In this document: in pieces, positions 8,059-30,981 of the stretch
Position numbering within the stretch: the first letter of the stretch is position 1
Layout of the letters: every line of letters starts with the position of its first letter
IMG/VR virus record: IMGVR_UViG_3300005332_000003
Location: 1-35,998 of that record
Source: a virus
Taxonomy: Duplodnaviria > Caudoviricetes
Length of the DNA: 35,998 nucleotides
Direction: 5' to 3' (one strand)
Made by a program: the position numbers and the translations under genes
The notes under the pieces: generated by a model
Databases searched by the model: none
Told to the model about the DNA's origin: nothing
Seen by the model: the letters and a program-made list of their open reading frames with translations, nothing else

Positions 8059-8772
8059 ATGGCCGCGATGCTGTTCAGCGACATGACGCTCGCTCACCTG
8101 GAGACCAAAGCGGTCTCCGACGGCGACGAGGTTGCGCACTTCACCGGCGTTGCGTCCACGAGTGACGTGGACCTGGTCGACGACATCATCGAGCCCGGCG
8201 CGTTCGGGAAGATCAATCCGAAAGACGTGGCGTTGCTGCGCGACCACATCGGGTCGCAGTGCATCGGCGGCTGGTCGTCGTTTGAGCAGGACGGCAAGCA
8301 CCTGCGGGTCGAGGGCGACATCTCGCTCGCCATCCCCGTCGGCCGCGAGACCTACACGCTGATGAAGCAGGGGTTCTTGTCGGGCATCAGCGTCGGCTAC
8401 CGCATCAAGAAGGGCGGCATGATCTTCGACGAGGCCAGCGGCATCCGGCGGATCAAGAAGGCCACGCTGGTCGAGGCATCCATCGTTTCCGTGCCGGCGA
8501 ACCGTGGCGCCCGCGTGCGCGCCGTCAAGTCACTGATCGGCTCGGCCGACGAGCTCCACGAGTGGCTCGCCGACGCCGGTTTCGACGAGCAGCAGATCGC
8601 CGTCATCAACCGCAAGGGCTTCGACGCGCTAAGGCGCGAGGAGCGTGGCGGTCTCCGCATCCACGCGGTCGACGGTTTCGGTGAGTTGCCGACCGACGAT
8701 CAGTGCGCCGCCCTGGCCGCGGCTATCCGCGGCTTCTCCCAAGACGTGAGGCAGCACCATGTCGACAGTTGA
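8059..8772 (+). CDS. prohead maturation protease (HK97 family)
   Basis: FTGVAST..VDLVDDIIEPGAF, LLRDH, LSGISVGY, LVEASIVSVPAN. Confidence 0.92.
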   Translation: MAAMLFSDMTLAHLETKAVSDGDEVAHFTGVASTSDVDLVDDIIEPGAFGKINPKDVALLRDHIGSQCIGGWSSFEQDGKHLRVEGDISLAIPVGRETYTLMKQGFLSGISVGYRIKKGGMIFDEASGIRRIKKATLVEASIVSVPANRGARVRAVKSLIGSADELHEWLADAGFDEQQIAVINRKGFDALRREERGGLRIHAVDGFGELPTDDQCAALAAAIRGFSQDVRQHHVDS

Positions 8773-10117
8773 GGACCGTATCGCCGAACTGCTCAAGGAG
8801 GTGCAGACCGCTCGCACCGACATCGCCAAGGGCGACGACGCACGCATGGCGGCGCTCGCCGAGCTTCGCTCCGATGTCGAGAAGGGGTCGAAGTCGGTCA
8901 CGGAAGTCACGGCCAAGATCGACCGCATCAGCGCCGACATTGCCGCCAACGCGACCAAGGTGGCGACGCTGGAGACGGCCATCGACAGCCTGTCCAAGAA
9001 AGTCGGCCGCCCAGGTGGGCAGGAGTTCTCCGACGAAGCCAATCGCAAGGCCGCCGTCGGGCTGCTGGAACTCAAGCACCTACTGCGCGTCCCGAAGCGC
9101 GACGTCGAGCACCCGTTCACGCCGACCGAGGAGCAGATCGCCGAAGCGGTGACCGCGATCAAGGCCGTGCGCGGCCTGCTCAAGACCACCGACATCAGCA
9201 GCCTGCCGGAGGATCAGCGCAAGGCGCTCACGTCGTTCAACCTCGGCTCGTCGGGCTTCATCCTGCCGCCGGAGATGTCAGGGCGCGTGCTGTCGTGCCT
9301 GGAGGACATCACGGACGTCACCGGGCTGATGAACAACATCACGATCAGCGGCCCGAGCATCAAGTTCATGGTCGACGACGCGCGGCTGCTGGAGGCGGCG
9401 TGGGCGTGCCAGACCGATTGCTTCGCCAACAACCCGGCGGCCGATCTGACGAAGGGGCTCGGCGAGCTCGAGCTCAAACCCGAGACGCTCCGCTTCATCG
9501 TGTGCACGTCGCGGGACATCCTCGAGGACGCCTCCGTCGACATCGAGAATTGGATGCTCACCAAGGTCAACTGGGCGTTCCGCAACACGATCAGCACGGC
9601 GATCATCAGCGGCGACGGCCAGGGCAAGCCGCTCGGCATCCTCAACCCGGCGGCCGGCATCCCGATCTGCGACACATCCGACGCCACGCCGGCCGGTCAG
9701 TTCACGTGGCAAGACCTGATCATGCTCAAGTGGCAGGTGCCGATGCAGTTCCACGGCGGCAACGGCAACGGCAACGGCGGTCGATACCTGATGAACCAAA
9801 ACACGTTCGGCCTCACGCTCACCATGAGCGATGCAATGGGTCGGCCGATCATGATCGCAACGCCGACCGACAACGGATCATTCATCGTCAACGGGTCGCC
9901 GGTCCAGATCGTCACGCAGATGCCCGACGTCGCGCCGGGCGCAACGCCGGTCGCCTTCGGCAACTGGAACATCGCGTACATGGTGGTGAACCGGAAGGCC
10001 GTCGCCATGCAGCAGGACCCATACAGCGCCGGGTTCTGCATCCTGTTCAAATTCGAGTCGCGCGTCGGTGGCGGCGTGATCTGTGCCAACGCCGCGCGAC
10101 TGATGCGGATCGGCTGA
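8759..10117 (+). CDS. major capsid protein (HK97 fold) with N-terminal delta domain
   Basis: Coiled-coil N-terminus, GFILPPE, ILEDASVDIE, GDGQGKPLGIL, MPDVAPGATPVAFGNW, DPYS...RVGGGV. Confidence 0.95.
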   Translation: MSTVEDRIAELLKEVQTARTDIAKGDDARMAALAELRSDVEKGSKSVTEVTAKIDRISADIAANATKVATLETAIDSLSKKVGRPGGQEFSDEANRKAAVGLLELKHLLRVPKRDVEHPFTPTEEQIAEAVTAIKAVRGLLKTTDISSLPEDQRKALTSFNLGSSGFILPPEMSGRVLSCLEDITDVTGLMNNITISGPSIKFMVDDARLLEAAWACQTDCFANNPAADLTKGLGELELKPETLRFIVCTSRDILEDASVDIENWMLTKVNWAFRNTISTAIISGDGQGKPLGILNPAAGIPICDTSDATPAGQFTWQDLIMLKWQVPMQFHGGNGNGNGGRYLMNQNTFGLTLTMSDAMGRPIMIATPTDNGSFIVNGSPVQIVTQMPDVAPGATPVAFGNWNIAYMVVNRKAVAMQQDPYSAGFCILFKFESRVGGGVICANAARLMRIG

Positions 10118-10128
10118 CGGAGGAGCAC

Positions 10129-10548
10129 ATGACGTTTTCAGCGGCCGGAACGATTCTCGTCTACGACGCGAAGTCGCCGAACTGGGCCGACATCGGACCC
10201 GGCTACGCCTACGCGGTCGTGCTCGCCAATCAAACGGCGGCCGACATCGCCGACGGCGACTTCACGATCCAGAGCGCAAAGCCGTCGGCGTCGAACCCAT
10301 GCGCGCCCGATGCCGCAACCTGGGCGGACGTGCAGGTGCAGCCGGAATGCGACGCGGCCCCCGGCTCGGTCGCCGGTCCCGCGAAGATCGTGCTCAGCGC
10401 CCAGGCGCCGCTCAAGGCGCACTCGCAATGCCAGTACTCGGTCCCGTGTCTCACCGGGCAGTTCATCCGCGTTGTGCAGAGCGCGACCGGCGGCGTCGGC
10501 GTGGGCGTGTTCGTGGTGGTGACGCGGCTTCGTCGCATCTCCTACTGA
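10129..10548 (+). CDS. putative capsid decoration/cement protein
   Basis: GGAGGAG RBS; directly after MCP; beta-rich, 139 aa, 4 Cys. Confidence 0.65.
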   Translation: MTFSAAGTILVYDAKSPNWADIGPGYAYAVVLANQTAADIADGDFTIQSAKPSASNPCAPDAATWADVQVQPECDAAPGSVAGPAKIVLSAQAPLKAHSQCQYSVPCLTGQFIRVVQSATGGVGVGVFVVVTRLRRISY

Positions 10549-10558
10549 GGAGGCGCGC

Positions 10559-10927: not shown

Positions 10928-11169
10928 GCAAGGTCGTGCTGATGAAGCAGGATGCCGTCTACTCGTCCGACAACGGCATCACGCTGACGTCGTATGCGGC
11001 CGACGAGTTCTACGAGGTGCCCGACCACGTCGCCGCCGGCTTGTTTCGCCGTGGTGCCGCGGTGCCGGCCAAGTTCCAGGTCGGCGAACCGACCGTCAAG
11101 GAATCGCCGCCGGCCGAGCAACCGACCGAGGCGCTGCCCAAGATCAAACTCAAAGGAGGCTCTCGATGA
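10924..11169 (+). CDS. hypothetical protein
   Basis: MSKVVLMKQDAVYSSDNG...; ATGA overlaps at both ends. Confidence 0.65.
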   Translation: MSKVVLMKQDAVYSSDNGITLTSYAADEFYEVPDHVAAGLFRRGAAVPAKFQVGEPTVKESPPAEQPTEALPKIKLKGGSR

Positions 11170-11339
11170 CCCACGCAAATTGCCCCACGACGTGCCCGGC
11201 ACCGCCGGCACCCTGCACGCTCGGCTGGTTCGCCTCGCCGTGCATGTGTACGACGACCGGAGCGGTCACCACGCAGGCGCAAGCGGCCGAAGCCGCGCCG
11301 CAGCAGACGACACACTCGCGCCGCCGCACGGCGGAGTGA
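11166..11339 (+). CDS. Cys/Pro-rich small protein (57 aa)
   Basis: AGGAGG RBS; MTHANCPTTCPAPPAPCTLGWFASPCMC... Confidence 0.65.
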   Translation: MTHANCPTTCPAPPAPCTLGWFASPCMCTTTGAVTTQAQAAEAAPQQTTHSRRRTAE

Positions 11340-11343
11340 ACCC

Positions 11344-11550: not shown

Positions 11551-11558
11551 GGTAAGCC

Positions 11559-11966
11559 GTGGCGATCTGCCAGCCGATCAACCCGTGCCCGTGCCACCCG
11601 TGGTCCATCGCACCGGGTGACACGCAGCCGCTTTACATCGACTGGGGTGGCTGGCTCGCGAGCGTGCCCGGCTACACGCTCAACGCCATCGAGTCGGCCG
11701 AGCTCACCGACCTGAACGTGAACCCACCGGCGCCGGCGAACCCCGACGAGATTGCACTGGTCTCGGGGATGGACATCGACCCGACCACATCGAACCCCGG
11801 CTTCACCAACATCGTCGGCACCGCGACCGAGAACATCGTCCAGGTGGCCGCCGACGTGCCGGTCGGCAAGGCGTATCGTCTCGACATCGGCGTCATTGCG
11901 CGCGACTGCAACGGACGCAAGATCGTTGCCCACGACTGCGTGTTCATCACCACGTCGCTGATCTGA
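11559..11966 (+). CDS. putative fibre-adaptor-like virion protein
   Basis: PGDTQPLYIDWGGWL...GKAYRLDIGV...NGRK pattern of small phage Ig-like adaptor proteins; GAGG RBS. Confidence 0.6.
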   Translation: MAICQPINPCPCHPWSIAPGDTQPLYIDWGGWLASVPGYTLNAIESAELTDLNVNPPAPANPDEIALVSGMDIDPTTSNPGFTNIVGTATENIVQVAADVPVGKAYRLDIGVIARDCNGRKIVAHDCVFITTSLI

Positions 11967-12535: not shown

Positions 12536-12537
12536 CA

Positions 12538-15226: not shown

Positions 15227-15227
15227 G

Positions 15228-16631: not shown

Positions 16632-17132
16632 ATGTCGACCAAGATCGACGCAAACCGCCGGGCCGACAGGCGCAAGTCGCCATCGGTCGGCTCGCTCACC
16701 AGCCGGGTGACGGTCTGCACCACGCTGGAACGGCCCGATGGCGACGTCTCCACGCTGGTTGATCGGCCGGGCGTGATCCAGGTCCACGCGAGCGTGCGCC
16801 CACTGCGCGGCGTTGAGGTGCTCAACTGGAAAGCGGTCACCGAGGTGTATTCGGGGCTCGGCGGCACGCGGGGCGCGGCGCCAACGCATGAGATCGTGAT
16901 CCGCGACCCACCGGACGTGAAGGTGGACCTCAATCACTGGGTCTTCTGCCGGGATCGCTATAGCGAGACTTGGTACAAGGTGCGGTTCGTGGAGGACATG
17001 GGCGGCGTCCACCGCTTCCTCACGCTGCTCTGCACCATCGAGACCGTGAAGGACCGGCGCAGCGATCCGGCGACGCAGCCGCTGCCGCCGACTTGGGAGA
17101 CACCGGACGAGCCGGTGGTCGACCGGGTATGA
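16632..17132 (+). CDS. head closure / head-tail joining protein (SPP1 gp16-like)
   Basis: VGSLTSRVTV...VHASVRPLRGVE...THEIVIR...YKVRFVED...RFLTLLC. Confidence 0.75.
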   Translation: MSTKIDANRRADRRKSPSVGSLTSRVTVCTTLERPDGDVSTLVDRPGVIQVHASVRPLRGVEVLNWKAVTEVYSGLGGTRGAAPTHEIVIRDPPDVKVDLNHWVFCRDRYSETWYKVRFVEDMGGVHRFLTLLCTIETVKDRRSDPATQPLPPTWETPDEPVVDRV

Positions 17133-17548
17133 GCACGGTCACGACGACAATCACGGTGAAGGTCAGCGGCAAGATCACCGCGAAGATCGACGACGCGATC
17201 ATCGCCGAGTGGATCGACGACCGCCTCAACGATGGCCGCAACGTGTTCGTGACCAGCGCCAGCCGCGGCGGTGGTGGCGGCCGGGTCTACGGCAAGCACC
17301 GGGCGTCGGCGCCGGGCGAATATCCGGCCACCGACTCAGGCCGGCTGGCCAACTCGGTCGACTCCGAAATGACGGGACCGCGCTCGGGTGCGCTGTTCTC
17401 CGCCGTCGAGTACGCCGGATTCCTGACAAGCGGAACCTCCAAGATGGCGCCGCGCAAGATGCTCGCCGACGCCCTCCACGAGGCGCTCAGTCAGCGGCCG
17501 GCGAGCGACGAGCTCGCCAAGGCGGCCACGTTCGAGGGAGGCACGTGA
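17129..17548 (+). CDS. neck/tail completion protein (HK97 gp10-like)
   Basis: HRASAPGEYPATDSGRLANS...VEYAGFL..GTSKMAPR. Confidence 0.8.
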   Translation: MSTVTTTITVKVSGKITAKIDDAIIAEWIDDRLNDGRNVFVTSASRGGGGGRVYGKHRASAPGEYPATDSGRLANSVDSEMTGPRSGALFSAVEYAGFLTSGTSKMAPRKMLADALHEALSQRPASDELAKAATFEGGT

Positions 17549-18306
17549 TGGCGAAGAACGGCAACGCCAACGGCGTGCAATCGCTGCATTCTGACCGTCG
17601 ACCAGGTGCCCTCACCCCAGGCGGCCCGCCGGTGGTCGAGAGCCTGTTCAACGTCGTCACGCGGCGGGTGCGCGCCGCCCGCACGCTGTTCGGCGAGAAC
17701 GTGAAGCTCGTGCTCCGCCAACTCGACACTGAGCATTGGAGTTTGCTGCAGGTGCCGTATTGCCTCGTGGTGCCGACGGTGACGCGGCCGGCGGCGCTCC
17801 GGCCGATGGACGCGGACTACGATTCGATCATCAACCCGCGGTCCATCACGTTCATCGCCCAACTGGACGGGCGCGGCAGTGAGGCCGAGCACCTTGCGGC
17901 CAACGACATCGAGCTTGCCGAGAGGCAATTGATCGACGCGCTGGTCAACTGGCGACCGTTCCCGTGGTACAAGCCGACGGCCTACGCCGGCATGAAGCTG
18001 GCGGCGACCCGCGCGCCAGACGTCAAGGTGTCGTTCGTGTTCCTGTTCTACGAGGAGATCGTCCTGCCCGAGGAGGAGATCGGCGTGGACGACTTGGCGG
18101 TGCTCGACGGCATCACGGTCCACGTCAACGATCCCTGCTGCACGTGCCCGCCACCGGAACCGGAGTGTGTGCCGGCACCGAACATCTATGTTACAGGAGG
18201 CGGGTGCCCGGTCGCCGACCCGTGTTGTGCGCCCGAGCCATGCGTCTCGCCGCTAGAGGCAACGCGAGGAGGTCAGGATGACGACGTTCCAGCAGGCACG
18301 GGTTGA
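17548..18306 (+). CDS. tail terminator (Mu gp37-like) with Cys/Pro-rich C-terminal extension
   Basis: Position before sheath; LIDALVNWRP pattern; C-terminus DPCCTCPPPEPECVP...GCPVADPCCAPEPC. Confidence 0.65.
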   Translation: MAKNGNANGVQSLHSDRRPGALTPGGPPVVESLFNVVTRRVRAARTLFGENVKLVLRQLDTEHWSLLQVPYCLVVPTVTRPAALRPMDADYDSIINPRSITFIAQLDGRGSEAEHLAANDIELAERQLIDALVNWRPFPWYKPTAYAGMKLAATRAPDVKVSFVFLFYEEIVLPEEEIGVDDLAVLDGITVHVNDPCCTCPPPEPECVPAPNIYVTGGGCPVADPCCAPEPCVSPLEATRGGQDDDVPAGTG

Positions 18307-18660: not shown

Positions 18661-20202
18661 ATGGCGCAAAACGGAATCTCTATCCCGGCCGCTCGCGGCA
18701 ACTTCCTCACGTGGTGCATCAGCGGCTACTTGCCCCTGCAGGGGCTGTGCCGACCTCTGTTCATCGCACAGCAACTCGACGGCGCCGACGGCGTGCCGGG
18801 CGAGTACTACGTCCTCTACTCGGCCAACGAGGCGCGGGCGATGTTCGGCTCGGGCTCGGTCCTGGCGCTGATGGCGAAGCAGCACTTCGACTGCTGTCCC
18901 GAGCTCCCGCTGTACGCCGCGCCGCTGGCTGATCCATCGTCGGGCGCCGCGGCCGCGGTCAACACGATCACGATCACCGGGCCGGCGACGGACAGTGGCG
19001 CGCTCTCCGTCGCCATCCTCGACGAGATGTTTGCGGTCGGCGTGATCACCGGCGGCACCGCCGACAGCATCGCCACCGCACTCGCGGCCGAGCTCAATAA
19101 GAGCGTCGACCTGCCGTTCACGGTCACCGTCGCCACCAACGTCATCACGCTCACGGCGAAGAACAAAGGTCCCGCCGGTTCGTGGTTCAGCCCGATCTGG
19201 AACCCGAGCTTCGGCGACGCCTTCCCGGCCGGCGTGTCGGTCGCGACCGCTCAGACCACGCCGGGGACGGGCGTGGTCGATGCCGACCCGGCGATCCCGG
19301 CGATGAACTGCCCGTGGGACTGCATCGCGCTTGGCACCGAGGACGAGATCGCCGTCGACACCTTCGTCCAGTTGGTGCGGCAGAACTGGCGCTGCGGCGT
19401 CCAGGGCGATTTCAAGGACGGCCACCTGTTCCACAGCCGCACCGACACTGCCGGGCTGATCGCCGCCTACGGCCGCGACCGCAACAACCCGGAGGAGTGC
19501 GTTGTCCCGGTGCGCACCGGCTACAAGTATCCCGGCTACGTGATGGCGGCGGCGTTCACGTCGCGCGTCTGCTGCTCGGCGTGCGTCGATCCCTCGCGAC
19601 CGATCCAGTACGACAACGGCGTGCTGTGCAACCTGTACGATTCGGCCGAGTGCTCCAGCCTGTGGACACCGGAGGAGAAGCGAGCGTTCTATGACGCCGG
19701 CATCGCCAACTGGGACGTCGCCAACGCGCGCGGCGTTCGCCAGACGCAGTTGTGGATCGAGGAGCCGCTCACGACGTACAAGTACAACCCTACGACTGGC
19801 GCGCCCGACGGCGCATGGCAGCGGGTCGAGAACCGCTACACCACGGCGCGCTTCATCCGTGACCTGGGCACGTGGTATCGCGCCAACTACTCGTCGGTGG
19901 CACTGGTCAACGACGGCACCCGCATCCCGCAGGGCAAGCGCGCGGTGTCGCCGCGCATCCTGCAGGCGTCCATCCTGGCTTGGCTGCGTACGACGCAACT
20001 CGGCTTCACCGCCGAGGCCACCAGCGGCCAGCTTGAGCGGATGGTCCAGGTCGAGCGCACCAACACGCCGCAAAACTGCGACCCGAACCGCGTCAACGTG
20101 CTGATTGACCTGGACCTAGTCAACCAACTCGCTCGCATCGCAACCAGCGTGTCCGTGTCGCCGGAGTTTGCGTGTATTCCGCCGACCGCCATCGCCGCCT
20201 GA
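18661..20202 (+). CDS. tail sheath protein (Mu gpL-like)
   Basis: EARAMFGSGSVLALM, AVNTITITGPATDSG, LPFTVTV..NVITLTAKNKG, TTYKYN..GAPD, DPNRVNVL..DLVNQL; GGAGAG RBS. Confidence 0.9.
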   Translation: MAQNGISIPAARGNFLTWCISGYLPLQGLCRPLFIAQQLDGADGVPGEYYVLYSANEARAMFGSGSVLALMAKQHFDCCPELPLYAAPLADPSSGAAAAVNTITITGPATDSGALSVAILDEMFAVGVITGGTADSIATALAAELNKSVDLPFTVTVATNVITLTAKNKGPAGSWFSPIWNPSFGDAFPAGVSVATAQTTPGTGVVDADPAIPAMNCPWDCIALGTEDEIAVDTFVQLVRQNWRCGVQGDFKDGHLFHSRTDTAGLIAAYGRDRNNPEECVVPVRTGYKYPGYVMAAAFTSRVCCSACVDPSRPIQYDNGVLCNLYDSAECSSLWTPEEKRAFYDAGIANWDVANARGVRQTQLWIEEPLTTYKYNPTTGAPDGAWQRVENRYTTARFIRDLGTWYRANYSSVALVNDGTRIPQGKRAVSPRILQASILAWLRTTQLGFTAEATSGQLERMVQVERTNTPQNCDPNRVNVLIDLDLVNQLARIATSVSVSPEFACIPPTAIAA

Positions 20203-20214: not shown

Positions 20215-20589
20215 ATGGCGACGTGCATCAAGTGCAAGGGCGTTTTGAACTTCGTCATCCAGGGGCGCACGATCCGGCTGCAGTCGGACGGCGATGTCAC
20301 CGTGCTCGTCTCGCAGGAGAAACGCACGGAGACCTACGACGGCGAGTTCACCCGCGAGGACCGCAACCCGAAGATCATCGCCACGGTCGTCGTGCCCATC
20401 GACATGTACGTGCGGTACTTCCAGGAAATCTGCAACGTGCCGGTCGTGCTGGAGCTCTGCGACGGCCGCACGTTCTCGGCCGAGCACGCGAGCAACATCA
20501 GCGAGGAGCCCTACGACACCAAGAAGAACCTCCAGCCCCTCGAACTGATTACCGACGAGATTGTGGAGCTACTGCCGCAGGCGGCGTAA
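20215..20589 (+). CDS. tail tube protein (Mu gpM-like)
   Basis: 124 aa directly after sheath; VVLELCDGRTF pattern. Confidence 0.75.
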   Translation: MATCIKCKGVLNFVIQGRTIRLQSDGDVTVLVSQEKRTETYDGEFTREDRNPKIIATVVVPIDMYVRYFQEICNVPVVLELCDGRTFSAEHASNISEEPYDTKKNLQPLELITDEIVELLPQAA

Positions 20590-21222: not shown

Positions 21223-21359
21223 TCGCGACGCACCTCCGCTGGCCGCCGGGGTCGTGGGACCACCTGAGCATCCGTCGCGCGTCACGTATCTTCGAGGCGG
21301 TGGCCGAGTACAACAAGGACCACGCCACCACGCTCTCCCTTGAGGACCTGAGCGAGTAG
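21174..21359 (+). other. programmed -1 frameshift site and extension of the tail chaperone (G-T type product 20605..21359)
   Basis: In-frame G GGA AAG slippery heptamer at 21174-21180; the -1 frame stays open to 21359 and encodes LIATHLRWPPGSWDHLS. Confidence 0.85.
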
Positions 21360-21363: not shown

Positions 21364-23550
21364 ATGGCCGAAGTTACGTCGCGAGCCATACTGGAAGTCG
21401 ACGTCAAGGGCGAGGACAAGGTCAAATCGCTCAACAAGGCGTTCGATAACCTGCAGAAGGGCGGCGGCACAAAGGCGTTTTCGCTCGGCGACAGCCCGAA
21501 GAACCTCTCCAAGTTCATCGCAGAGACGAAGCGCACGCCGGAGCAGTTCAAGGAACTGATCGCCGACGCGCAGGCGCGCGGCAAGCCGCAACTCGCTGCC
21601 GCCCTCCAGAAGCAGATGGAGGCGGCGAACGAGAACGTCGGACAGTCGGTCAGCAAGATCGGCGAGACGATCAGCAGCGGCGCGAAGGGATGGGGCGCGT
21701 CGATCACGAACGCGATGCAGCAGACGGGCGCGACCGTGAGCCGGTGGGGCGCGAACTTCGCGTCCGGGCTCGCGCGGGTCGGCTCGACAATTGGCACCAC
21801 CGTGCACGGGTGGGCGAGCTCCGTCGCCGGGCTTGTCGGGCGCGGCCTCACTGCTGGCCGTGGTCTCATGGGCGGCATCGCGTCACGGTTTGCCGACTGG
21901 AGGACCAGCTTCGCCGGGAAGGTGACGGACAAGGCGTCGGAGGTGCTCGGCCTCACCGGCCGGTTCGCAAGTGCGCTCGGCACCATCGGGACCTATGCCG
22001 CACGCGGCACGGTCGGACTCGCGGCGTTCGCCGCCGGGCTCAGGTCGCTGATGTTCGCCTTCAGCGCCATCGGGGACGCGCCGGAGGCGGCGAAGAAGGC
22101 GGCCGAGGCAAACATCAAGGACTACACGCACGGTCTGGAGTTGGAGAGCAAGAACCTCACCAAGTCGGCGGAGCGCACCAAGGCCGGCACGATCCTGATG
22201 GGCGACAGCTTCTCCGACCTGGAGACGAGCATACACGGCACGCTCAAGGACATCCGCTCGGGCGAGGCCAAGGACGACGTCGCCGAAGCCGCCGGGCGTT
22301 GGGACGTCACGAGGAAGCGGCTGAAAAAGAACATGACCGACCCGCTGGAGATGCTCCAGCGGTTCACAGCCAAGCGCGAGGAGCTCGACTGGAAAGCGGT
22401 CGCCGGCACGCCCAAGGCGAAGGCGAAGGCGGAGCAGCAACGCAAGCAGTTGCTGTCCGACGCGGAAAAGATATTCGGCAAGGACTTCGCGGCCGCGGTC
22501 AGGTCGGGGAGCACCGAACTGTTCAAGGAGGCGAAGGAACGCGCCGCCCGCGTCCAGGCGATCGAGGGCGAGGTCAACAAGCAGCGTTACGAGCAGGCGG
22601 TCCGCCTGCAGATGGCCGAGCGCGAGCGCATGGCGACCGAGTCGGCGCTGCAAAAGCGGTTCGGCGATCAGGTCACGGAGAGCCAGCGACGCCTCTCCGA
22701 CGCGCGCACGCGCTACGCGCAGACGGTCGGGCCGGCCGAGGCCGACCTCAAAGCTGCGGTCTCCAACTTCTGGACCAAGTTCCAGACCGGGTGGACCAGC
22801 GCCATGACCGCCGGTCCGCTGGCGAACATCCAGTCGGCGATGGCGGCTGCCATCAACAAGATCAACACCGAGGCGCTCGGCCAAAAGCTCGGCGAGGTGG
22901 CAAACAAGATCGAGGAGTTCGTGCTCGGCCTCGACGAGAAGGGCAAGCCGAAAAAGGGGCTCAAGGACTTCATCGAGGAGACGGCCGTTCCCCCGTGGTT
23001 CCGCGAGGGCGCGCCGAAGATACCGGGGTTCCAGTTCACTAAGGATACGTTCTTTCCCAAGGACCTCCCGATGATCGAGGTGCCGTGGACGCTCGGCAAG
23101 TTCCTCGGCCTCAAAGGCGTGTGGGAGGGCGTGGGCAAGTTCCCGGGGATCGACATCAGCGGCATGCCGGGGCTCAAGCCAGGAGTCCAGCAGGCCGCCG
23201 AGACCGGCCAAGTCAGCCAGATAGGGGCGGCGGCGGGGCGGGAGTTCAACACCACGGCGAACCTGTCGCCGCAGGCGATGAACGCGCAAAAGATCATCAA
23301 CGAGGTCAGTTGGGCGCAAGCCGCCGGCTCCGCCAAGACGACCATCGAGGGCGTCAGTTGGACCAACGCCGCGCAGAACGCAGTGTCGACGATGACGGCC
23401 GGGGCATCGTCCATCGGCTCGGCAATCGGCAGCGCCTTCGTCTCGGCAGCCCGCGCGGGCATTGGCAGGCTGTCGATCCCCGTGGTGGGCGGCGGCGGTG
23501 GCGGTGGGGGCGGCGGCAAGCCGTCGACTGATCGTGACGAGGCAGACTGA
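21364..23550 (+). CDS. tape measure protein
   Basis: 728 aa, Ala/Gly/Lys-rich helical composition, after chaperone. Confidence 0.85.
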   Translation: MAEVTSRAILEVDVKGEDKVKSLNKAFDNLQKGGGTKAFSLGDSPKNLSKFIAETKRTPEQFKELIADAQARGKPQLAAALQKQMEAANENVGQSVSKIGETISSGAKGWGASITNAMQQTGATVSRWGANFASGLARVGSTIGTTVHGWASSVAGLVGRGLTAGRGLMGGIASRFADWRTSFAGKVTDKASEVLGLTGRFASALGTIGTYAARGTVGLAAFAAGLRSLMFAFSAIGDAPEAAKKAAEANIKDYTHGLELESKNLTKSAERTKAGTILMGDSFSDLETSIHGTLKDIRSGEAKDDVAEAAGRWDVTRKRLKKNMTDPLEMLQRFTAKREELDWKAVAGTPKAKAKAEQQRKQLLSDAEKIFGKDFAAAVRSGSTELFKEAKERAARVQAIEGEVNKQRYEQAVRLQMAERERMATESALQKRFGDQVTESQRRLSDARTRYAQTVGPAEADLKAAVSNFWTKFQTGWTSAMTAGPLANIQSAMAAAINKINTEALGQKLGEVANKIEEFVLGLDEKGKPKKGLKDFIEETAVPPWFREGAPKIPGFQFTKDTFFPKDLPMIEVPWTLGKFLGLKGVWEGVGKFPGIDISGMPGLKPGVQQAAETGQVSQIGAAAGREFNTTANLSPQAMNAQKIINEVSWAQAAGSAKTTIEGVSWTNAAQNAVSTMTAGASSIGSAIGSAFVSAARAGIGRLSIPVVGGGGGGGGGGKPSTDRDEAD

Positions 23551-24773
23551 TGGCAGCCGATTGCAACAATCCCGTATATCGCTCGGCGTCGTGGAAGGGC
23601 GTCGCGTTCCACGTGGAGAGCAGCGACGATGACTTTGGCCGGCGCGGCGATCTGTACGAGTACCCGTTGTCGAACGACGTCGGATACAAGGACCTCGGGC
23701 GCAAGGCGCGCAAGTTCAAAGTCGACGGCTACCTGATCGGCGGCGACCAGGTTGCGCAGACCGTGAGAATGGCGGCGGCGGCTGAGTCGCCCGAGCCCGG
23801 CATGCTCATTCACCCGATGTTCGGGCCGCAGCTGGTCGCGTGCGTCAAGCTCACCACGTCGGCGCAGTACCGAAAAGAGAAGCGCCGCACCAAGCTGTCC
23901 TTCGAGTTCGTTGAGGCTAACCCGTCGATGGCGCCGTTCCTGGTCGGGGCGGCGATTTCGATGCTGTTCTCCCTCGGATCAAACACGGTCACCGCGTCGA
24001 AGCAGAACGCGACGTGGGCACCCACCACTGCGGTGACGGCCACCACGCGCGACATCTCAAACAACCTCGCCGCCCAGGTTGCGCCGGCCGTCGATGAGAC
24101 GTCCTACGATGCTATTTCGGAACTGCAGCGCGGCGATCCGGTCACCGTGTTTCCGACGGTCGAGGCGGTCGCTGTACAGCAGCAGCAACCCGGCGCGCCG
24201 CGGGCGGTCGTCGTGCCGACGGCGGTGGTGCTGCCGCTGCCCTATCCTACGTTCTCGGACGCGATCGACCCGATTGACAACGGCACCGCCACGGTGCGGC
24301 GCATCCACGTCGACGCGCTGGCGCGGTTGCGCGAGTTCAACGGCTACGTCGTGGACCGCAGCGATGGCACGCCGAGCGTCGAGTCGCTGATCCTGTCGAC
24401 CCGGCTGGCGATGATCCGCGACTATGCGCTCACCGCCGCGCAGACCACGTACAAGACCGTGCGCGATGCCGTGGCCGACCTCGACTTCGTGATGGCGGTC
24501 TACGACGACGAGGAGCGGGCAGCGGCCGACCGCTGCGACGACGTGCTGGTCTCGGCGATCCGATCAGCCCGCGCGGAGGCGGCGCGCACGATCCTGTCGC
24601 AGAACATCCGGCTGCCGGGCGTGGTCGAATCCAGCGCCGACGGCGTGTGGCCGTCGGTCGTGGTGGCGCACAAGCTCTACGGCGACGGGACGCGGTATGG
24701 CGACGTCGAGTCCTACAACCCGTCGATGCCGCCGTTCTTCATCGGGCGCGACGTGGTCGCGCCATCGGTATGA
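23550..24773 (+). CDS. DNA circularization / tail protein (Mu gpN-like)
   Basis: YRSASWKGVAFHV...GRRGDLYEYP...DLGRKAR, PGMLIHPMFG, PSVVVAHKLYGD. Confidence 0.9.
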   Translation: MAADCNNPVYRSASWKGVAFHVESSDDDFGRRGDLYEYPLSNDVGYKDLGRKARKFKVDGYLIGGDQVAQTVRMAAAAESPEPGMLIHPMFGPQLVACVKLTTSAQYRKEKRRTKLSFEFVEANPSMAPFLVGAAISMLFSLGSNTVTASKQNATWAPTTAVTATTRDISNNLAAQVAPAVDETSYDAISELQRGDPVTVFPTVEAVAVQQQQPGAPRAVVVPTAVVLPLPYPTFSDAIDPIDNGTATVRRIHVDALARLREFNGYVVDRSDGTPSVESLILSTRLAMIRDYALTAAQTTYKTVRDAVADLDFVMAVYDDEERAAADRCDDVLVSAIRSARAEAARTILSQNIRLPGVVESSADGVWPSVVVAHKLYGDGTRYGDVESYNPSMPPFFIGRDVVAPSV

Positions 24774-24779: not shown

Positions 24780-25976
24780 ATGGCAAACGAGGCATTCGGC
24801 ACCGCCTACGTGGAGATTGGCGGCCAGCGTTACGACCGCTTCCTCACGCTGTCGCTCACACGCGCGAAGCAGGAGGCGACCTGCAGCGGCACCATCGTGC
24901 TTTCCTGGCCGGGCGCCGAGCAGTTCAACGCACAGAACCCGCCGGCGCAGGCGCTCGTCGACGGCGCCAAGGGCAGCATGTACCTCGACGGCCAACTGGC
25001 AGCGACGTTCCGCATCGACAGCCGCACGTCGAACGGTTCGCCCGATAACTTCAAACTCGACCTGTCGTTCCGCGGCCTCGCGGGCGCGCTGGTCGACTCG
25101 CACGCCGACCACGAGAGCGGGCAGGAGAACAAGAAAAAACCGGCCGACATCTGCAAGAAGCTGATGGAGGGCTACGAGCCCAAACTGATCGACAAGTCGA
25201 ACTTCGACCGCAAGCTGGAGCGGTTCATCATCGACGAGGGCGAGTCGGTGACGCGCGCCATGCGCCGCGCCACGCGCGAGTTCGGCTTGACGTTCTCCGA
25301 GAACGAGCAAGGCGACGTGGTGCTGCAGAAGAAAGGCACCGACGAGGGCAGCGGGCAGGCGCTCGTGCTCGGGCGCAACTTCGTCGAATGGGCGGTGAAG
25401 CGCGACATCTCTCCGCGGGCGTCGAAGGTCAAGACTAAGGGCAACGCCGTGCCCACCGACGAGAAGTACGGCAAGGACGCGGAGGAGATGGCCGGCGAGG
25501 CCATCGACAACTATGTCAAATACAAGCGGCTGATGCGCGTGTTGATTGACAGCGACCACGATAAAGAGACGTTGAAGAAGCGCGCCGTCAGCGAGGCGCG
25601 CCGGCGCAAGGCGCAAGGGCTCAACGTCGAGCTCACCATGTCCACGTGGAGCGACGACGGTGGCCAACTGTGGAAGGTCGGCCGCATGCACCACGTCGTA
25701 ATTCCCGTCGACCAGGTTGACGATGACCTGCAAATTTCTCAGGTGGTGTTCAACCTGACCGAGAACCAACGCCGCGCGCGCGTCACGCTCGTGCCCAAGG
25801 ACTCGTTCGGCGATGAGGAGGGCGGCGAGGACGGCAAGGACGGCAAGGGCAAGGACAGCGGCGAGGCGGCGGCCGGAAAGGACAGCAAGGGTGCCAAGGG
25901 CGGTGGTGGCGGCAGCGGCGACAGCGTGTTCTCCGATTCGATCACCGGCGCAATCGGCGAGGGGACACCGCAGTGA
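24780..25976 (+). CDS. baseplate hub protein (Mu gp44/gpP-like)
   Basis: GRxxxxxLVD-like [26 protein letters not shown]; position. Confidence 0.8.
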
Positions 25977-28258
25977 CCGTGAACAACTGGGAACACTGGC
26001 TGTTCGCGCAACACAAGCTGCGCAACGTGCTGCGGCGCGGCTACCTGCTCAAGACGTACTACGACAAGAAGCTCCTGCAAGCCAGGATCAAGACCGGCGT
26101 TGAGATTGAGAACGACCGCATCGACTGGCTGCACCCGGTCGGGTTCCTCGGGCGCGTGGCGCCGGCCAACAAGGTCGAGGTCCTCACGATGGACGTCGGC
26201 GCCGATCCATCGCGCCGCGTGATCGCCTGGGTGATCGGCGACCGTGCCACACACCCGAAGATCGAGGAGGGCGAGTCGATTCTGTACTCGCCCGGCGACA
26301 AGAAAAAATACATCAGGGTCTACAAGAAGCAGCAAAAGCAGACCGGCGGTGGTGGCGGCCGCGACGATGGCGGCGGCGAACAGAGCGAAAGCCGGGAGGG
26401 CATTCACACCGACGCTGACGACCTGCCGATCACGTCGAACACCAAGGACAGTTTCCAGGGCAACGCCGACAAGGGACAGGGCTTCACGACCAAAGCGAAC
26501 TTCGACATCAAGGCCGACCAGAACACGCAGTTCCAGGCGGCGAAGCACGTCCGCATCGGGACGACCTATCGCGAGGGCGACACCTACACCCAGGGCGTTG
26601 AGTACGCGGTGGACCATGTTGCCGGCGGAGGGGCGAGCATATCGCCGTCCACGGGGCTCCGCGCGGGCGAGACCGGCCGTCCCGATGGCTCGCAAGAGTG
26701 GAGCGCGAGCGGACAGGCCGGCAACGTGTCGCTGCTGGACATTGGCAGTCGGGTTGCGGCGCTCGAAGCCGGCAGCGGCGGCGACGGCGAGCCTGGACCG
26801 CCGGGACCACCCGGCCCGCCTGGACCAGCAGGACCGCAAGGACCGACCGGCCCGCAGGGACCGACGGGTGCCACGGGTGCGCAAGGTCCTGCCGGCGCCA
26901 CCGGACCAGCGGGAGCAACGGGCGCGCAAGGTCCGAAGGGCGACAAGGGCGACACCGGCGCAGCCGGCGCCACTGGCGCGCAAGGTCCCCAGGGTCCAGC
27001 CGGGCCGACGGGATCGACCGGCGCCACCGGACCAGCCGGTCCGACGGGTCCGCAAGGCGATCCCGGCCCGACAGGTCCGACGGGTCCACCCGGCACAACC
27101 GACTGGGCAGGCATCACCGGCAAGCCGTCGACGTTCCCACCCGATCCCGAAGCGGTGGACGACCGGGTCGCCGCGCTGCTCCAGGCGGGAAGCAACGTCA
27201 GCCTCACCTACAACGATGCCGCCAACACGCTGACAATCGCGGCCGCTGGTGTCACCGACGGCGACAAAGGCGACATCACGGTCAGCGGCGGCGGCGCGAC
27301 CTGGACCGTCGACCCGCAGGCGATCACCTACAGCAAAATCCAGAACGTGTCGGCGACCGACCGCATCCTCGGCCGCTCGTCGGCTGGCGCCGGCACGGTG
27401 CAGGAGATCGTCTTTACGCAGGCCGCTCGCGATCTTGCGGACGACACGACGGCCGCGGCGCAGCGGACCACGCTCGGGCTCGGCAACGTCGACAACACCA
27501 GCGACAACAACAAGCCGATAGGCAGCACCTGCGGGCGCTTCATTTGGAACACTGCCACGACCTGCTTTTTCGTCACGCTCGACGGCCAATGGCTTCGGGT
27601 CAACGGCGTGTGGCGCCAGATTCCGGGCGCTGGCATCCAGTTCGACGCGACTGGCTTGGCTGCATCGACACGCTACTACGCCTACGTGTTTGACAATGCC
27701 GGCACGCTCACCGGCGAATTTAGTACGACGGCGCGCACCAAGCACACCGACGGAACGGCGATCAAGAGCGGCGATCCAACGCGCGCCCTCGTCGGCATGG
27801 TCTACACCAACGCGAGCGCACAGTTCTACGACCTCGGCGTGGCGTCGTGGTTCAACCGGCGCGGCAAGGTCGGGAGCGCCACCATCACCACCACGCGCAC
27901 CACGACCGCGACAACGGACACCGAGCTCAATGCCGAACTTCGCGTCTCATTTGCCGCGTGGGGCGACGAGCCCGTCATCGCTACGCTCGGCGGCGCTGCC
28001 TATCCGGCCGCCATTGTCAACGCGCGCATCGTGAGCAGCATCTGCTTCGACGGCACCCTCCCAACCGAAAGCCCGAAAAGCACAATCGCGGGGGAGACAA
28101 CCGCGCAGGCGTACAAAACGCTTTCGTTGACCGTCATGAAATCGTTGGGCGAGGGCGGGCACTACGCCACGCTGTTCGCCCGCGTCGGCAACGCTGCACA
28201 CACTGGCACCTTCGACATGGACAACCCGGCGACCGTCGCCGTGATGATCCGGGGGTGA
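25973..28258 (+). CDS. baseplate spike (Mu gp45-like) fused to collagen-like and fibre domains
   Basis: N-terminal gp45 pattern (LQARI..G..IE..I..LHPVGF...EEGESILY), 35 Gly-X-Y triplets, C-terminal fibre-like domain. Confidence 0.8.
26786..27100 (+). repeat. collagen-like (Gly-X-Y)35 coding repeat
   Basis: Uninterrupted GEP GPP GPP ... GPP GTT. Confidence 0.95.
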
Positions 28259-28308
28259 TTTGACAAGGCGGGGCGCTCGGCGCTTCGATTGCGGGCGGGA
28301 GGGATGGC

Positions 28309-28887: not shown

Positions 28888-28888
28888 C

Positions 28889-30082
28889 ATGGCACTGATC
28901 ACCTCGATTGATTGCGTGCTGCCGCGGCCCGACATCGGGCTGCTGCAGGAGCAGGTGCGGGTGGAGCTCTCCAAGCGCCTGCTCGGCGGTGCGCCGGTGG
29001 TGCCGATGAGTGCCGAGGACGTGCTCGCCTTCGTGATGGCGGGCACGACGAACCTGATGCACGGCTTCGTCACCCAGGCGCTGAAAGAGAACGATCCGGC
29101 CACCATGTGTTGCGACAACCTCGTCACCTACGGCGCCCGGCGCGACATCAACCTGCGTGCCTCCACCCGCGCCAAGGGCTACGTGGCGATCACCGGCACG
29201 GCCGGCGCGGCGATCCCGGCCACGATCCGGTTCGTGGGTGAGAGCTCGCGCGAGTACAAGCTCGACCCCGGCGTGACGTTCAACCCGACCGCCCTGGATA
29301 GCAGCGGCGGTGCGGTGCTGCGGGTGGTCGCCACCCTGGGCGGCTCGGCGTTCAACCTGGACAGCGGCGCGCCGCTCGTCGTCTCGACCACGTTCCCCGG
29401 CATCGACCTGCAGGCCACGATAGTCGGCAACGGGCTCACCGGCGGCACCGACGACGAATCGTGCGAGCAGTTGCGGGCGCGGATCATCGCCGCCGAAGGC
29501 GCCGGCGTCGTCACCACGAACGGCCAGTGGTACTTGCAGCAGACCGCCACGTATCCCGGCGTGACCCGTGCCTGCTTCGACGAGTGCGAGGGATGCTGCG
29601 ACCCGGCGCGCGTGGTGGTGTACCCGTTCATGGAGGGCGTGTATGGCGATATCGCCACGGCACCCTACGGCGTGCCGCCCGGCGAGGTGCTGTGCGAGAT
29701 GTCCGAATGGATGTTCGGCAAGGCACCCGGCCACGGCGAGGGACAGGCGCCAATGGGCATCGTCGGCCAATACGCCACGGCGTTGCCGACGGTGGTGACC
29801 ATCAACGCCTACTGCTTCCAAGGCTGTCCAGCCGGCGCGGCCGAGCGCATCCAGTCGGCATTGCGCACGCTGATCCGCGCCTCGACGTGTGTTGGCTCGC
29901 GCATCTGCAAGGAACAACTGCGGGCCGCCGCCTACACCGCGGTCGGCCCCGACGCCTGCTTCTCCACCGTTGAACTGGCGTTCGACAGCACTCTGTGGCG
30001 CGAGGACGCGGCTTACGCCTATCTCGCGTGCGCGCACTTCCTCGTCGTTGGCAATGTCAACCTGATCCCGACCTTCTCATGA
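28889..30082 (+). CDS. baseplate J / Mu gp47-like protein
   Basis: AKGYVAITGTAG, GLTGGTDDES.EQLRARI, PGVTRA. Confidence 0.9.
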   Translation: MALITSIDCVLPRPDIGLLQEQVRVELSKRLLGGAPVVPMSAEDVLAFVMAGTTNLMHGFVTQALKENDPATMCCDNLVTYGARRDINLRASTRAKGYVAITGTAGAAIPATIRFVGESSREYKLDPGVTFNPTALDSSGGAVLRVVATLGGSAFNLDSGAPLVVSTTFPGIDLQATIVGNGLTGGTDDESCEQLRARIIAAEGAGVVTTNGQWYLQQTATYPGVTRACFDECEGCCDPARVVVYPFMEGVYGDIATAPYGVPPGEVLCEMSEWMFGKAPGHGEGQAPMGIVGQYATALPTVVTINAYCFQGCPAGAAERIQSALRTLIRASTCVGSRICKEQLRAAAYTAVGPDACFSTVELAFDSTLWREDAAYAYLACAHFLVVGNVNLIPTFS

Positions 30083-30981
30083 CCGCCACCGGACCCGACG
30101 CACCAGCGATCAAGTGCTACACGCCCGACACCTGTTGCGGGCCGTCGCCGTGCGCCGTCGATGAGGACGAGTTCATCTGCCAGATTCGCACGCTCCTGCC
30201 CGAGGGCGAACCCTGGAACAACACCCGGCCGGCGACCGCCACCCCGCCGGTCAATCAGGGCGCCATCACCATCGGCTGCGCGCACGTCGGCTGCGAGCAG
30301 CTTGTGCTCGGCGGTTGCTGCGCCGACTCGGTCACGTGCGAGGACATCCCGGTGGCGCCGCAGTTGGCGGTGGTCGACTCCTTCGCCAGCGTGGCGCACG
30401 GCGCCGTCGTCGCGCTGTGCCGGATGCTGCACGAGCTCGACCCGTGCACCGCCGACCTCACGATCGAGTATTGGGCCGAGCGGCTCGGCGTCGGAAAGCC
30501 CGATCCCTGCGGGCCTTCCTTCTCCGACCAGGTGCTCGGCATCCTGATTTGCTTGTTCGTGAAGCTGCGGCAGCACGTGATCAATCTGGCGTACCTCGAG
30601 GAGCTCGCCGCCGCGTTCGGTGCCGATGTCGTGGTGCGCGATGCTGGCGACATGAATTGCGGTCCCACCGGGTGGTGGACGCTGGCGCGCGACCGCGCGA
30701 TGTGCGCGACCATCCAGCCGTGCCCCGACGAACCGTTCGACAAGGGCGGAAAACTGATGAGCATGGTGCCGTGCAGCCCGACGCCGCCGCCATCACTCAA
30801 CTTCGTGCTGTCCCCGACGGACATCACGCTGCCGGCGAACTGCAACCTGCCGCCGATCCCGGCAACGAGGCCGCACGATCCCGACCTCTACGCGGCGTTC
30901 AAGTGGCTGCTGCCGCTGATCCTGCCGCAAAATATCCTCGCCTGCGTGTACGAGCGCGACCCGGCCAACTGCATCGTCTGA
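30079..30981 (+). CDS. baseplate wedge protein (Mu gp48/YmfQ-like), very Cys-rich
   Basis: LLPEGEPW...ELDPCTA...WAERLG..PDPC pattern; follows J. Confidence 0.75.
   Translation: MTATGPDAPAIKCYTPDTCCGPSPCAVDEDEFICQIRTLLPEGEPWNNTRPATATPPVNQGAITIGCAHVGCEQLVLGGCCADSVTCEDIPVAPQLAVVDSFASVAHGAVVALCRMLHELDPCTADLTIEYWAERLGVGKPDPCGPSFSDQVLGILICLFVKLRQHVINLAYLEELAAAFGADVVVRDAGDMNCGPTGWWTLARDRAMCATIQPCPDEPFDKGGKLMSMVPCSPTPPPSLNFVLSPTDITLPANCNLPPIPATRPHDPDLYAAFKWLLPLILPQNILACVYERDPANCIV

What the first reader, a model, noticed from the sequence alone, without database searches (positions are those of the whole stretch)
8759..30981. Virion shell proteins are systematically cysteine-rich while the tape measure has none: a disulfide-crosslinked virion?
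Seen (hand counts from the translations): gp48-like wedge 21 Cys/300 aa, baseplate J 15/397, sheath 15/513, head-tail connector 9/188, tail terminator 9/252, gp46-like 6/192, tube 4/124, adaptor-like 5/135, and MCP 7, all outside the delta domain. Many are CC or CxxC clusters in insertions or terminal arms (GCGLNCPDLCCYC, DPCCTC, CFDECEGCCD). In contrast the 728-aa tape measure has no Cys, the hub has 2, and the first ~500 aa of the spike have none. Knowledge: structural proteins of Mu, P2 and HK97 are generally Cys-poor and assemble in a reducing cytoplasm. Inference: the lattice-forming parts become covalently crosslinked by disulfides (or metal sites) after lysis, while parts that must move or be ejected stay free. 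This could stabilise the particle or gate sheath contraction by redox state.
Basis: partly seen in the sequence, partly recalled or inferred. Interest (0 to 1): 0.85.

Follow-up and report, generated by a model that had tools for sequence, protein, structure and literature searches.

The report
Milano-like disulfide virion, no sheath lock
This uncultured phage's head, collar, tail and baseplate proteins carry conserved cysteines at many of the positions that cross-link the published phage Milano, so its particle is likely welded by disulfide bonds in the same way, but it lacks Milano's sheath-locking cysteine pair, which is likely a late addition to a much more widespread design.

Summary
The window is the head-tail module of a Mu-like myophage; its closest solved sheath relatives are Agrobacterium phages Milano and 7-7-1, whose virion-wide disulfide network is published. 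With cysteines hidden from the aligner, 29 of 89 window cysteines land exactly on Milano cysteines (null mean 3.0). Twelve of 15 sheath cysteines match six Milano disulfides, and cysteines are gained and lost in pairs, which favours disulfides over metal sites. Two overlooked genes encode a Milano-type decoration protein and a probable linker peptide; the 'adaptor' is a Milano-type collar.

New: among 81 cysteine-rich sheaths the two contraction-tolerant inter-subunit pairs are nearly invariant, while Milano's contraction lock (C47:C182) is in only 2 of 81 and absent here. Milano's sheath gate is therefore missing; a baseplate gate remains plausible. The cysteine-free tape measure is not diagnostic: cysteine-poor controls have none either. 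No bond was measured. The scan noted a Milano-like virion before on other DNA (e1-5347714).

The parts
8759..10117 (+). Major capsid protein (HK97 fold), 7 Cys. C180, C217, C221, C249, C427, C442 = Milano/7-7-1 C186, C223, C227, C252, C440/444, C455/459. Both members of the two intrachain pairs of 7-7-1 (190:389, 302:460) are absent by column; C304 unassigned.
   Evidence: Pfam Phage_capsid; PDB hits RcGTA, 7-7-1 9hz8, Milano 8fwg; six Cys in 13 of 13 relatives, C304 in 11 of 13
10129..10548 (+). All 4 Cys align to Milano gp10 C60, C74, C99, C105.
   Evidence: PDB 8fwg_l1 E 1.2e-4; each Cys in 14 of 14 relatives
11166..11339 (+). 57-aa Cys peptide, probable capsid linker like Milano gp128 / 7-7-1 gp117 (C6 and C10 spacing; same gene position). 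Inferred, not shown.
   Evidence: SD and ATG, GC3 0.83; found upstream of the collar in 11 of 19 distinct relatives by a motif search; C6, C10, C26, C28 invariant in 12 sequences; no significant PDB hit
11559..11966 (+). Collar protein: wall domain of Milano gp13 without its decorating domain (135 vs 230 aa). C4, C10, C12, C117, C127 = C19, C22, C24, C211, C221; the intra-ring pair C23:C229 is absent.
   Evidence: PDB 8fwc_J E 8.5e-5, two stretches flanking the missing domain; domain limits from PMC10491603
11969..12535 (+). Neck 1 / head-tail connector, 9 Cys; the Cys cluster lies in the loop matching Milano gp14's head-joining loop (C117, C120), and C139 matches C136.
   Evidence: PHROG 442 E 0.004; gene order and multiple alignment; no phmmer hit to gp14
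16632..17132 (+). Neck 2 / head closure, 3 Cys (two align to Milano gp15 Cys)
17548..18306 (+). Tail terminator, 9 Cys, 8 of them in a variable Pro/Cys-rich C-terminal arm; partners unresolved
   Evidence: assigned by gene order; no family hit; 3-9 Cys in 23 relatives
18661..20202 (+). Tail sheath, 15 Cys. Counterparts of Milano bonds: C19:C245 and C217:C331 (inter-subunit), C473:C505 (found by mass spectrometry in Milano), C30:C308, C78:C323, C79:C305 (intrachain). C221/C304 is an extra co-varying pair; C280 is an orphan. No counterpart of the lock C47:C182.
20215..20589 (+). Tail tube, 4 Cys. C4 and C73 lie at or next to Milano C3 and C82, but their Milano partners C19 and C43 are absent, so the pairing must differ.
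   Evidence: C4 and C73 in 30 of 30 relatives; C7 and C82 in 29 of 30, lost together once
21364..23550 (+). Tape measure protein, 0 Cys (also 0 in Cys-poor controls)
   Evidence: assigned by gene order and size
23550..24773 (+). Baseplate centrepiece (Mu gpN/gp43-like); C5, C98, C329 = all three Cys of Milano gp25 (C5, C100, C318)
   Evidence: C329 in 9 of 12 relatives
24780..25976 (+). Baseplate hub, 2 Cys, poorly conserved
25973..28258 (+). Central spike fused to a collagen-like repeat and a C-terminal domain; 3 non-conserved Cys; no HxH motif in the first 260 aa
28309..28887 (+). Baseplate wedge 1 (gp46-like), 6 Cys; C35, C45, C80 align to Milano gp28 C22, C32, C74
28889..30082 (+). Baseplate wedge 2 (J-like), 15 Cys; 8 align to Milano gp29 Cys (C3, 68, 69, 181, 223, 224, 302, 374); 7 are lineage-specific
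   Evidence: 14 of 15 in 7 of 7 relatives; only 7 of 50,697 phage records hit, 6 of them Milano, 7-7-1, OLIVR4 and two Synechococcus-labelled phages
30079..30981 (+). Baseplate wedge 3 (gp48-like), 21 Cys, 20 of them kept in at least 90% of covering homologues; only partly mappable to Milano gp30
   Evidence: model matches the Milano and 7-7-1 baseplate chains first (Foldseek E 5e-6, TM 0.40); no PDB sequence hit

Best explanation
The window encodes a Mu-like contractile-tailed phage whose capsid, decoration, collar, neck, sheath, tube and wedge proteins carry conserved cysteines at many of the positions disulfide-bonded in phage Milano, and these likely form a particle-wide disulfide network after assembly and release that likely makes the virion more resistant to shear and heat. 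Shown: the cysteines, their homology to Milano's and 7-7-1's solved bonds, their conservation, and their gain and loss in pairs. Inferred: the parts assemble non-covalently with reduced thiols in the cytoplasm; the lattice holds cysteine pairs side by side and they oxidise after lysis without a phage-encoded oxidase; the two inter-subunit sheath bonds that survive contraction in Milano stitch the sheath without blocking it; and because Milano's sheath lock is missing, any bond that must break at infection would lie in the baseplate, most likely between centrepiece C329 and wedge-2 C9.
For: Closest solved sheaths are Milano 8fop (E 2.7e-31) and 7-7-1 9hz7; the model's top four Foldseek hits are the same two phages. 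Gene order follows Milano from capsid to wedge 3. With Cys masked, 29 of 89 Cys in ten proteins align exactly to Milano Cys and 47 of 89 within one residue (null means 3.0 and 8.2; maxima 10 and 20 in 20,000 shuffles). Among 81 Cys-rich sheaths: C19 78/78, C245 80/81, C217 81/81, C331 81/81. Pair concordance: 78/323 80 of 81 (about 10 independent pairs, p 0.002), 79/305 81 of 81, 218/250 80 of 81, 221/304 79 of 81 (7 pairs, p 0.016); five mismatched control pairings were not significant. The first three are intrachain bonds in Milano Table S4. A wedge-3 pair co-varies (23 both, 40 neither, 1 discordant; 6 pairs, p 0.03). The MCP keeps both ends of 7-7-1's two inter-MCP bonds and both decoration anchors, and lacks both ends of its two intrachain bonds. 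In Milano, DTT removes the resistance to sonication and heat. No thioredoxin, glutaredoxin or Thioredoxin_4 match in 5 of 5 related genomes, with controls ringing.
Against: No bond was observed: there is no isolate, and the structure tool gives no coordinates, so no SG-SG distance was measured. 42 of 89 Cys do not fall within one residue of a Milano Cys in the masked pairwise test; the tube, terminator arm, C-terminal wedge 2 and much of wedge 3 are rewired and their partners unknown. Co-variation identifies pairs, not whether they are inter- or intra-subunit, and the invariant inter-subunit Cys cannot co-vary at all. The collar's inter-subunit pair is both-or-neither in 21 of 21 by motif, but one row (L020) is ambiguous by column and there is only 1 supported independent pair. 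Pair 30/308 is discordant in 6 of 80. MCP C304 could be a shifted C302, which would blur the paired-loss reading; the Milano and 7-7-1 papers also list different partners for C186 and C302. Centrepiece C329 is absent in 3 of 12 relatives. The Erv search had no positive control.
Confidence: 0.85

Rival explanations
1. A sizeable part of the cysteine clusters (wedge 3, the neck 1 loop, the terminator arm) bind Zn or Fe-S rather than forming disulfides.
For: CC and CxxC-like clusters are abundant. Wedge 3 has one conserved His (H266, 59 of 64), and some of its Cys align with Cys in Cys-poor SfV and PPF1, so they predate the network. Most wedge-3 Cys are invariant and cannot be paired by co-variation.
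Against: Where variation exists it comes in twos, not fours. Milano's homologous Cys are in disulfides by cryo-EM, some confirmed by mass spectrometry, and Pam3's wedge Cys clusters are also disulfides.
Confidence: 0.1
2. One reading: sheath contraction itself is redox-gated, here by a different bond than Milano's (C221:C304 or the orphan C280 acting between subunits).
For: C221/C304 is a conserved co-varying pair that Milano lacks; C280 has no partner within the sheath (20 of 54 in the clade).
Against: The sheath extension domain that carries Milano's lock residue has no Cys in the window and in 52 of 54 clade sheaths. C221/C304 is dispensable in 10 of 54 and is replaced by Val/Ala, which looks like a buried intrachain contact (inference). 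C280 changes state 12 times on the tree.
Confidence: 0.12
3. The cysteines form mainly intrachain bonds or remain free thiols, so the particle is not covalently continuous.
For: All statistically supported sheath pairs with a Milano counterpart are intrachain there; the tube's Milano partners are gone; Pam3's crosslinks were called sporadic.
Against: The four best-conserved sheath Cys are exactly Milano's inter-subunit ones, and the 5-Cys sheath P0135 keeps those four. The MCP kept the inter-chain set and lacks the intrachain set. All four decoration Cys are inter-chain in Milano.
Confidence: 0.05

Closest known systems
Agrobacterium phage Milano (Schmittlotzvirus; PDB 8FOP, 8FOY, 8FQC, 8FWG, 8FWC; PMC10811340, PMC10491603)
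   Same: Gene order from capsid to wedge 3; HK97 head with decoration protein and collar; Mu-like tail; same Cys load in six core proteins (3.44 vs 3.41%); Cys-free tape measure; six of eight listed sheath bonds, all three centrepiece Cys and all four decoration Cys have counterparts.
   Different: Only about 24-33% identity in the clearly matched structural proteins. No sheath lock C47:C182 and no C217:C249 pair; extra C221/C304 pair; collar without decorating domain and without C23:C229; tube partners C19 and C43 missing; no gp16-like Ig linker found; spike lacks the HxH iron motif and carries a collagen extension; 7-deazaguanine genes inserted between neck 1 and neck 2.
Agrobacterium phage 7-7-1 (PDB 9HZ7, 9HZ8, 9RKU; PMC12796354) and OLIVR4
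   Same: Its capsid connectivity fits the window: inter-MCP C186:C459 and C227:C444 and decoration anchors C223 and C252 are kept.
   Different: 7-7-1 has the sheath lock residues and two intrachain MCP bonds that the window lacks. It is flagellotropic; host and receptor of the window's phage are unknown.
Synechococcus phage Yong-L2-223 and prophage-like loci in Bradyrhizobium (L102, L103, P0064)
   Same: Same Cys-rich architecture and the four core sheath Cys; also without the C47:C182 lock.
   Different: They sit on Milano's side of the sheath tree and have longer collars; no structure was found for them in the PDB searches.
Cyanophage Pam3 (PMC9942802) and siphovirus NBD2 tube (PMC13576161)
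   Same: Inter-subunit disulfides in a phage tail; a redox step in contraction was proposed for Pam3.
   Different: As far as the passages read show, limited to wedge and fibre, or to tube rings; Pam3's baseplate is only a weak fold match (E 0.42).

Membership tests
Milano-type disulfide-crosslinked myovirion (works like) | Cys enrichment confined to structural shell proteins | tested here: met
   3.53% vs 0.44% and 0.92%; 3.1-3.5% vs 1.0-1.4% in 5 of 5 related genomes, with my own crude gene caller
Milano-type disulfide-crosslinked myovirion (works like) | Cys at the positions of Milano's solved bonds | tested here: met
   29 of 89 exact with Cys masked vs null 3.0; sheath, MCP, decoration, collar and centrepiece mapping
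Milano-type disulfide-crosslinked myovirion (works like) | Decoration protein and collar that bridge capsid, neck and sheath | tested here: met
   PDB hits to gp10 and gp13
Milano-type disulfide-crosslinked myovirion (works like) | Capsid linker peptide (gp128-like) | tested here: inconclusive
   Same position and C6/C10 spacing, no significant sequence hit
Milano-type disulfide-crosslinked myovirion (works like) | Disulfide bonds present in particles; DTT-sensitive stability | not testable with these tools
   No isolate; no model coordinates returned
Milano-type disulfide-crosslinked myovirion (works like) | Contraction-blocking sheath bond C47:C182 | tested here: not met
   0 of 54 clade sheaths, 2 of 81 overall
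Milano-type disulfide-crosslinked myovirion (works like) | Centrepiece-wedge bond (gp25 C318 : gp29 C3) that must break for contraction | tested here: met
   C329 and C9 present in the window; 9 of 12 and 7 of 7 relatives. Residues only; the bond is not shown.
Genus Schmittlotzvirus | High protein identity to Milano and 7-7-1 (about 89% between the two, PMC10811340) | tested here: not met
   About 24-33%; separate branch of the sheath tree
Genus Schmittlotzvirus | Agrobacterium host, flagellum-dependent infection | not testable with these tools
   No genome locus found for the clade; only indirect hints of Alphaproteobacteria
Mu-like contractile tail module | gpL-type sheath, gpN/gp43 centrepiece, gp44 hub, gp46/47/48 wedge in order | tested here: met
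   Pfam and PHROG hits; Mu 9khy and 9ki1 among fold hits

The most novel reading that the evidence does not exclude
The disulfide-welded virion is not an Agrobacterium-phage speciality but an old design shared by a broad, mostly uncultured branch of Mu-like myophages. Its ancestral core is two inter-subunit sheath bonds that tolerate contraction, around which other bonds are gained and lost pair by pair; Milano's redox lock on the sheath is a recent add-on. These phages would fire a covalently stitched sheath without reducing it, with any redox trigger confined to the baseplate.
Probability: 0.55. Interest if true: 0.6.

Novelty: new variant of a known kind. Interest (0 to 1): 0.4.

Why it matters
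The phenomenon is published, so this is not a new kind of virion. What it adds is range and order of events. The Milano papers state that other myophages lack such cysteine levels and tie the network to the Agrobacterium host. A reviewer asked when and where the locks emerged, and the authors replied that they had no results (peer-review file). Here the network appears in a sister lineage of at least 54 sheath clusters at about 28% identity and in some twenty further clusters at the 50% level, almost all without the sheath lock. That separates armour from trigger, and makes the open question of what must be reduced at infection testable with two point substitutions in Milano. It also shows that co-gain and co-loss of cysteines can map virion disulfides from metagenomes.

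Tried and rejected
Complex prediction of decoration dimer plus linker peptide: no answer, score 0.02; no evidence either way. PDB sequence search with wedge 3 found nothing, and with the linker profile only 7 hits at E 0.65 or worse, none from Milano. Genome-collection scan with the clade's sheath alignment: 79 candidate stretches, none confirmed, so no host was read off. A broad sheath alignment was too divergent to scan with. Phage-encoded thiol oxidoreductase: none in 5 of 5 related genomes for three families nor among 99 proteins scanned against Pfam; proteins under 130 aa were covered only by the family searches; the Erv search was uninformative. Rejected: tape measure without Cys as evidence of design; cysteine excess as a by-product of GC content (same genome, other proteins 0.4-0.9%) or of wrong-frame ORFs (third-position GC 0.83-0.93). 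Paper search for cysteine-rich + phage structural proteins + metagenom + disulfide: 0 papers. Earlier notes on this genome: none.


Full report
What the window is. The 35,998-base contig (67% GC) is a virus record on its own. Pfam and PHROG place terminase, portal, protease, HK97 capsid, neck, a Mu-like sheath, tube and baseplate, fibres and a GH25 lysin on the + strand. The same sheath protein is on record on a 63,932-base contig, and four relatives rated 99-100% complete are 63-68 kb, so the window is roughly the structural half of the genome.

Observation. Every count in the finding is exact. Twelve shell proteins have 3.53% Cys, seven inner or moving parts 0.44%, seven other proteins 0.92% (groups drawn after seeing the counts). 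Five related genomes show 3.1-3.5% in shell proteins against 1.0-1.4% elsewhere (own crude gene caller). Two Cys-poor Mu-type controls have 1.05% (SfV) and 0.56% (PPF1) in six core proteins, against 3.44% here and 3.41% in Milano.

Closest solved relatives. The sheath's three PDB sequence hits are Milano, 7-7-1 and a third 495-aa sheath, 9khy, which names as Mu; the model (pLDDT 83.9) matches Milano and 7-7-1 first. Wedge 2 hits 7 of 50,697 phage records, six of them Milano, 7-7-1 (two records), OLIVR4 and two Synechococcus-labelled phages. The wedge-3 model (pLDDT 76.2) matches Milano's and 7-7-1's baseplate first, with a modest TM of 0.40. Milano's particle is crosslinked throughout by disulfides seen in cryo-EM and partly confirmed by mass spectrometry; DTT removes its resistance to sonication and heat, and contraction in vitro needed DTT plus guanidine (PMC10811340; PMC10491603).

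10129-10548 encodes a decoration protein whose four Cys align to Milano gp10's four bonded Cys and are kept in 14 of 14 relatives. 11166-11339 encodes a 57-aa peptide at the position of Milano's linker gp128, with the same C6/C10 spacing; it was found in 11 of 19 distinct relatives by motif but has no significant PDB hit, so that label is inferred. The 'adaptor-like' gene is Milano's collar without the decorating domain.

Are the positions shared beyond chance? With Cys replaced by X before pairwise alignment, 29 of 89 Cys in ten proteins fall exactly on a Milano Cys and 47 within one residue; random placement gives 3.0 and 8.2 on average, at most 10 and 20 in 20,000 draws. The other 42 do not map.

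Sheath. Twelve of 15 Cys correspond to six Milano bonds (Table 1 and text; Table S4; alignment). For the wider test I used 81 sheaths: 54 of the first 55 hits, window included (P0042 dropped as a fragment; P0056-P0060 not used); the 4 Cys-rich ones among 60 distant hits; Milano; Yong-L2-223; and 21 of 147 new representatives, picked for length and Cys pattern. The set is thus selected for Cys richness. Left out and checked separately: four with few or unrelated Cys, four fragments, and three over-long proteins, of which two carry the core Cys without the lock and one does not fit the pattern. Result: C19 78/78, C245 80/81, C217 81/81, C331 81/81. These are the two inter-subunit bonds that Milano retains after contraction. 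The pair that must break, C47:C182, is in 2 of 81 (Milano and P0209, 69% identical to it); 7-7-1 also has it; four more loci from bacterial genome records lack it. Variable Cys change in pairs: 78/323 concordant in 80 of 81 (13 and 14 changes; about 10 independent pairs, p 0.002), 79/305 in 81 of 81 (3 pairs, too few to test), 218/250 in 80 of 81 (3 pairs), 221/304 in 79 of 81 (7 pairs, p 0.016). Five mismatched pairings gave p 0.5-1. Pair 30/308 is discordant in 6 of 80.

Other parts. The MCP keeps both ends of 7-7-1's two inter-MCP bonds and both decoration anchors in 13 of 13 relatives and lacks both ends of its two intrachain bonds (PMC12796354); C304 is unassigned, and the Milano table pairs C186 and C302 differently. 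The collar lacks both C23 and C229, an inter-subunit bond in Milano; they are both-or-neither in 21 of 21 rows by motif, one row ambiguous by column, with only one supported independent pair. All three centrepiece Cys match Milano's. In 66 wedge-3 homologues Cys is the best-conserved residue (93%), and a pair absent from the window co-varies (23 both, 40 neither, 1 discordant; 6 pairs, p 0.03). The tube, terminator arm and C-terminal wedge 2 are rewired; partners are unknown.

Phylogeny and host. On quick trees built without the Cys columns, the window's clade and the Milano group are sisters (SH-aLRT 99, with a long-branch warning). With intermediate sequences and a mixture model, 37 rows of the Cys-rich lineage form one branch (95), two further Cys-rich rows fall outside it with weaker support, and the outgroup is not clean. 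Single origin is likely, not shown. No host is known. A GcrA domain in G003 (its link to Alphaproteobacteria is recalled), and Milano-side loci in Bradyrhizobium elkanii, B. lablabi, B. sp. Leo170 and a Bartonella bin point to Alphaproteobacteria; one locus lies in a Saccharibacteria bin, and Yong-L2-223 is recorded on Synechococcus. G002 has an integrase.

Mechanism. Shown: positions, conservation, paired change, absence of the lock. From the literature: homologous Cys are bonded in Milano and 7-7-1 and toughen Milano's particle. Inferred: non-covalent assembly in the reducing cytoplasm, oxidation after lysis templated by the lattice (no thioredoxin-type gene in 5 of 5 relatives), a stitched but unlocked sheath, and a possible gate at the centrepiece-wedge bond. 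Metal binding is not excluded for wedge 3, the neck loop and the terminator arm.

What is known and what was read. PMC10811340: parts 1-5 of 10 of the text (abstract to start of methods) and supplement passages, including Table S4 and the peer-review file; two supplement pages held no text, and Figure S7's alignment was seen only as its legend and part of its taxon list. PMC10491603, PMC9942802, PMC11915804: passages. PMC12796354: abstract, passages, part 2 of 4 of Results. PMC13576161: abstract and introduction. PMC6884629: search listing only. Searches listed no paper on this wider lineage or on the distribution of the lock; they cover open-licence papers only, and I saw 25 of 31 and 30 of 75 listings. 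Supplements of the neck and 7-7-1 papers were not read and may bear on conservation.

Verdict. Observation confirmed; interpretation right in kind but already published, and Milano's sheath gate is absent here. It works like Milano, is not a Schmittlotzvirus, and is a new variant that widens the range of the design and suggests that the lock is derived. Interest 0.4.

Noticed in passing
window 12532-16303: ParB-like, TGT/DpdA-like, QueC, FolE, QueD and QueE genes: a probable 7-deazaguanine DNA-modification set, inserted between neck 1 and neck 2. The TGT-like gene hit no other fetched locus. The same site holds ParB plus two DNA methylases in G002 and an amidase in G003, so it looks like an insertion hotspot inside the structural module.
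   Followed up: partly
window 25973-28258: Central spike fused to a collagen-like repeat and a further domain. Collagen repeats in 7 of 10 clade spikes, lengths 190-968 aa; none has the HxH motif that Milano's spike has (first 260 aa).
   Followed up: partly
G004 (L084:3753-4793) and G001 (L094:1931-2972): Two tandem copies of the decoration gene (132 and 213 aa, 4 Cys each), possibly for different capsid positions.
   Followed up: no
window about 5655-5873: Small basic protein with an N-terminal CxxC just before the portal, with hits in 5 of 5 related genomes; recalls Milano's 42-aa virion-associated gp5.
   Followed up: no
window 21198-21359: Short open frame overlapping the end of the tail assembly chaperone; probably a frameshift extension, as annotated for Milano gp23. 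Slip site not identified.
   Followed up: no
P0064, P0066, P0142, L102, L103: These sheaths carry extra Cys at window positions about 175 and 286 together, a candidate alternative bond involving the extension domain.
   Followed up: no
L097:8067-8474 (G003): GcrA cell-cycle regulator domain in a related phage, which also carries Que genes and a family A DNA polymerase.
   Followed up: no
window 31047-32963 and 33976-35328: Two fibre-like proteins with few Cys; the first has C20, C41, C48 near its N-terminus, which could tether it to the wedge as in Milano and Pam3. No sequence hit to Milano gp31.
   Followed up: no
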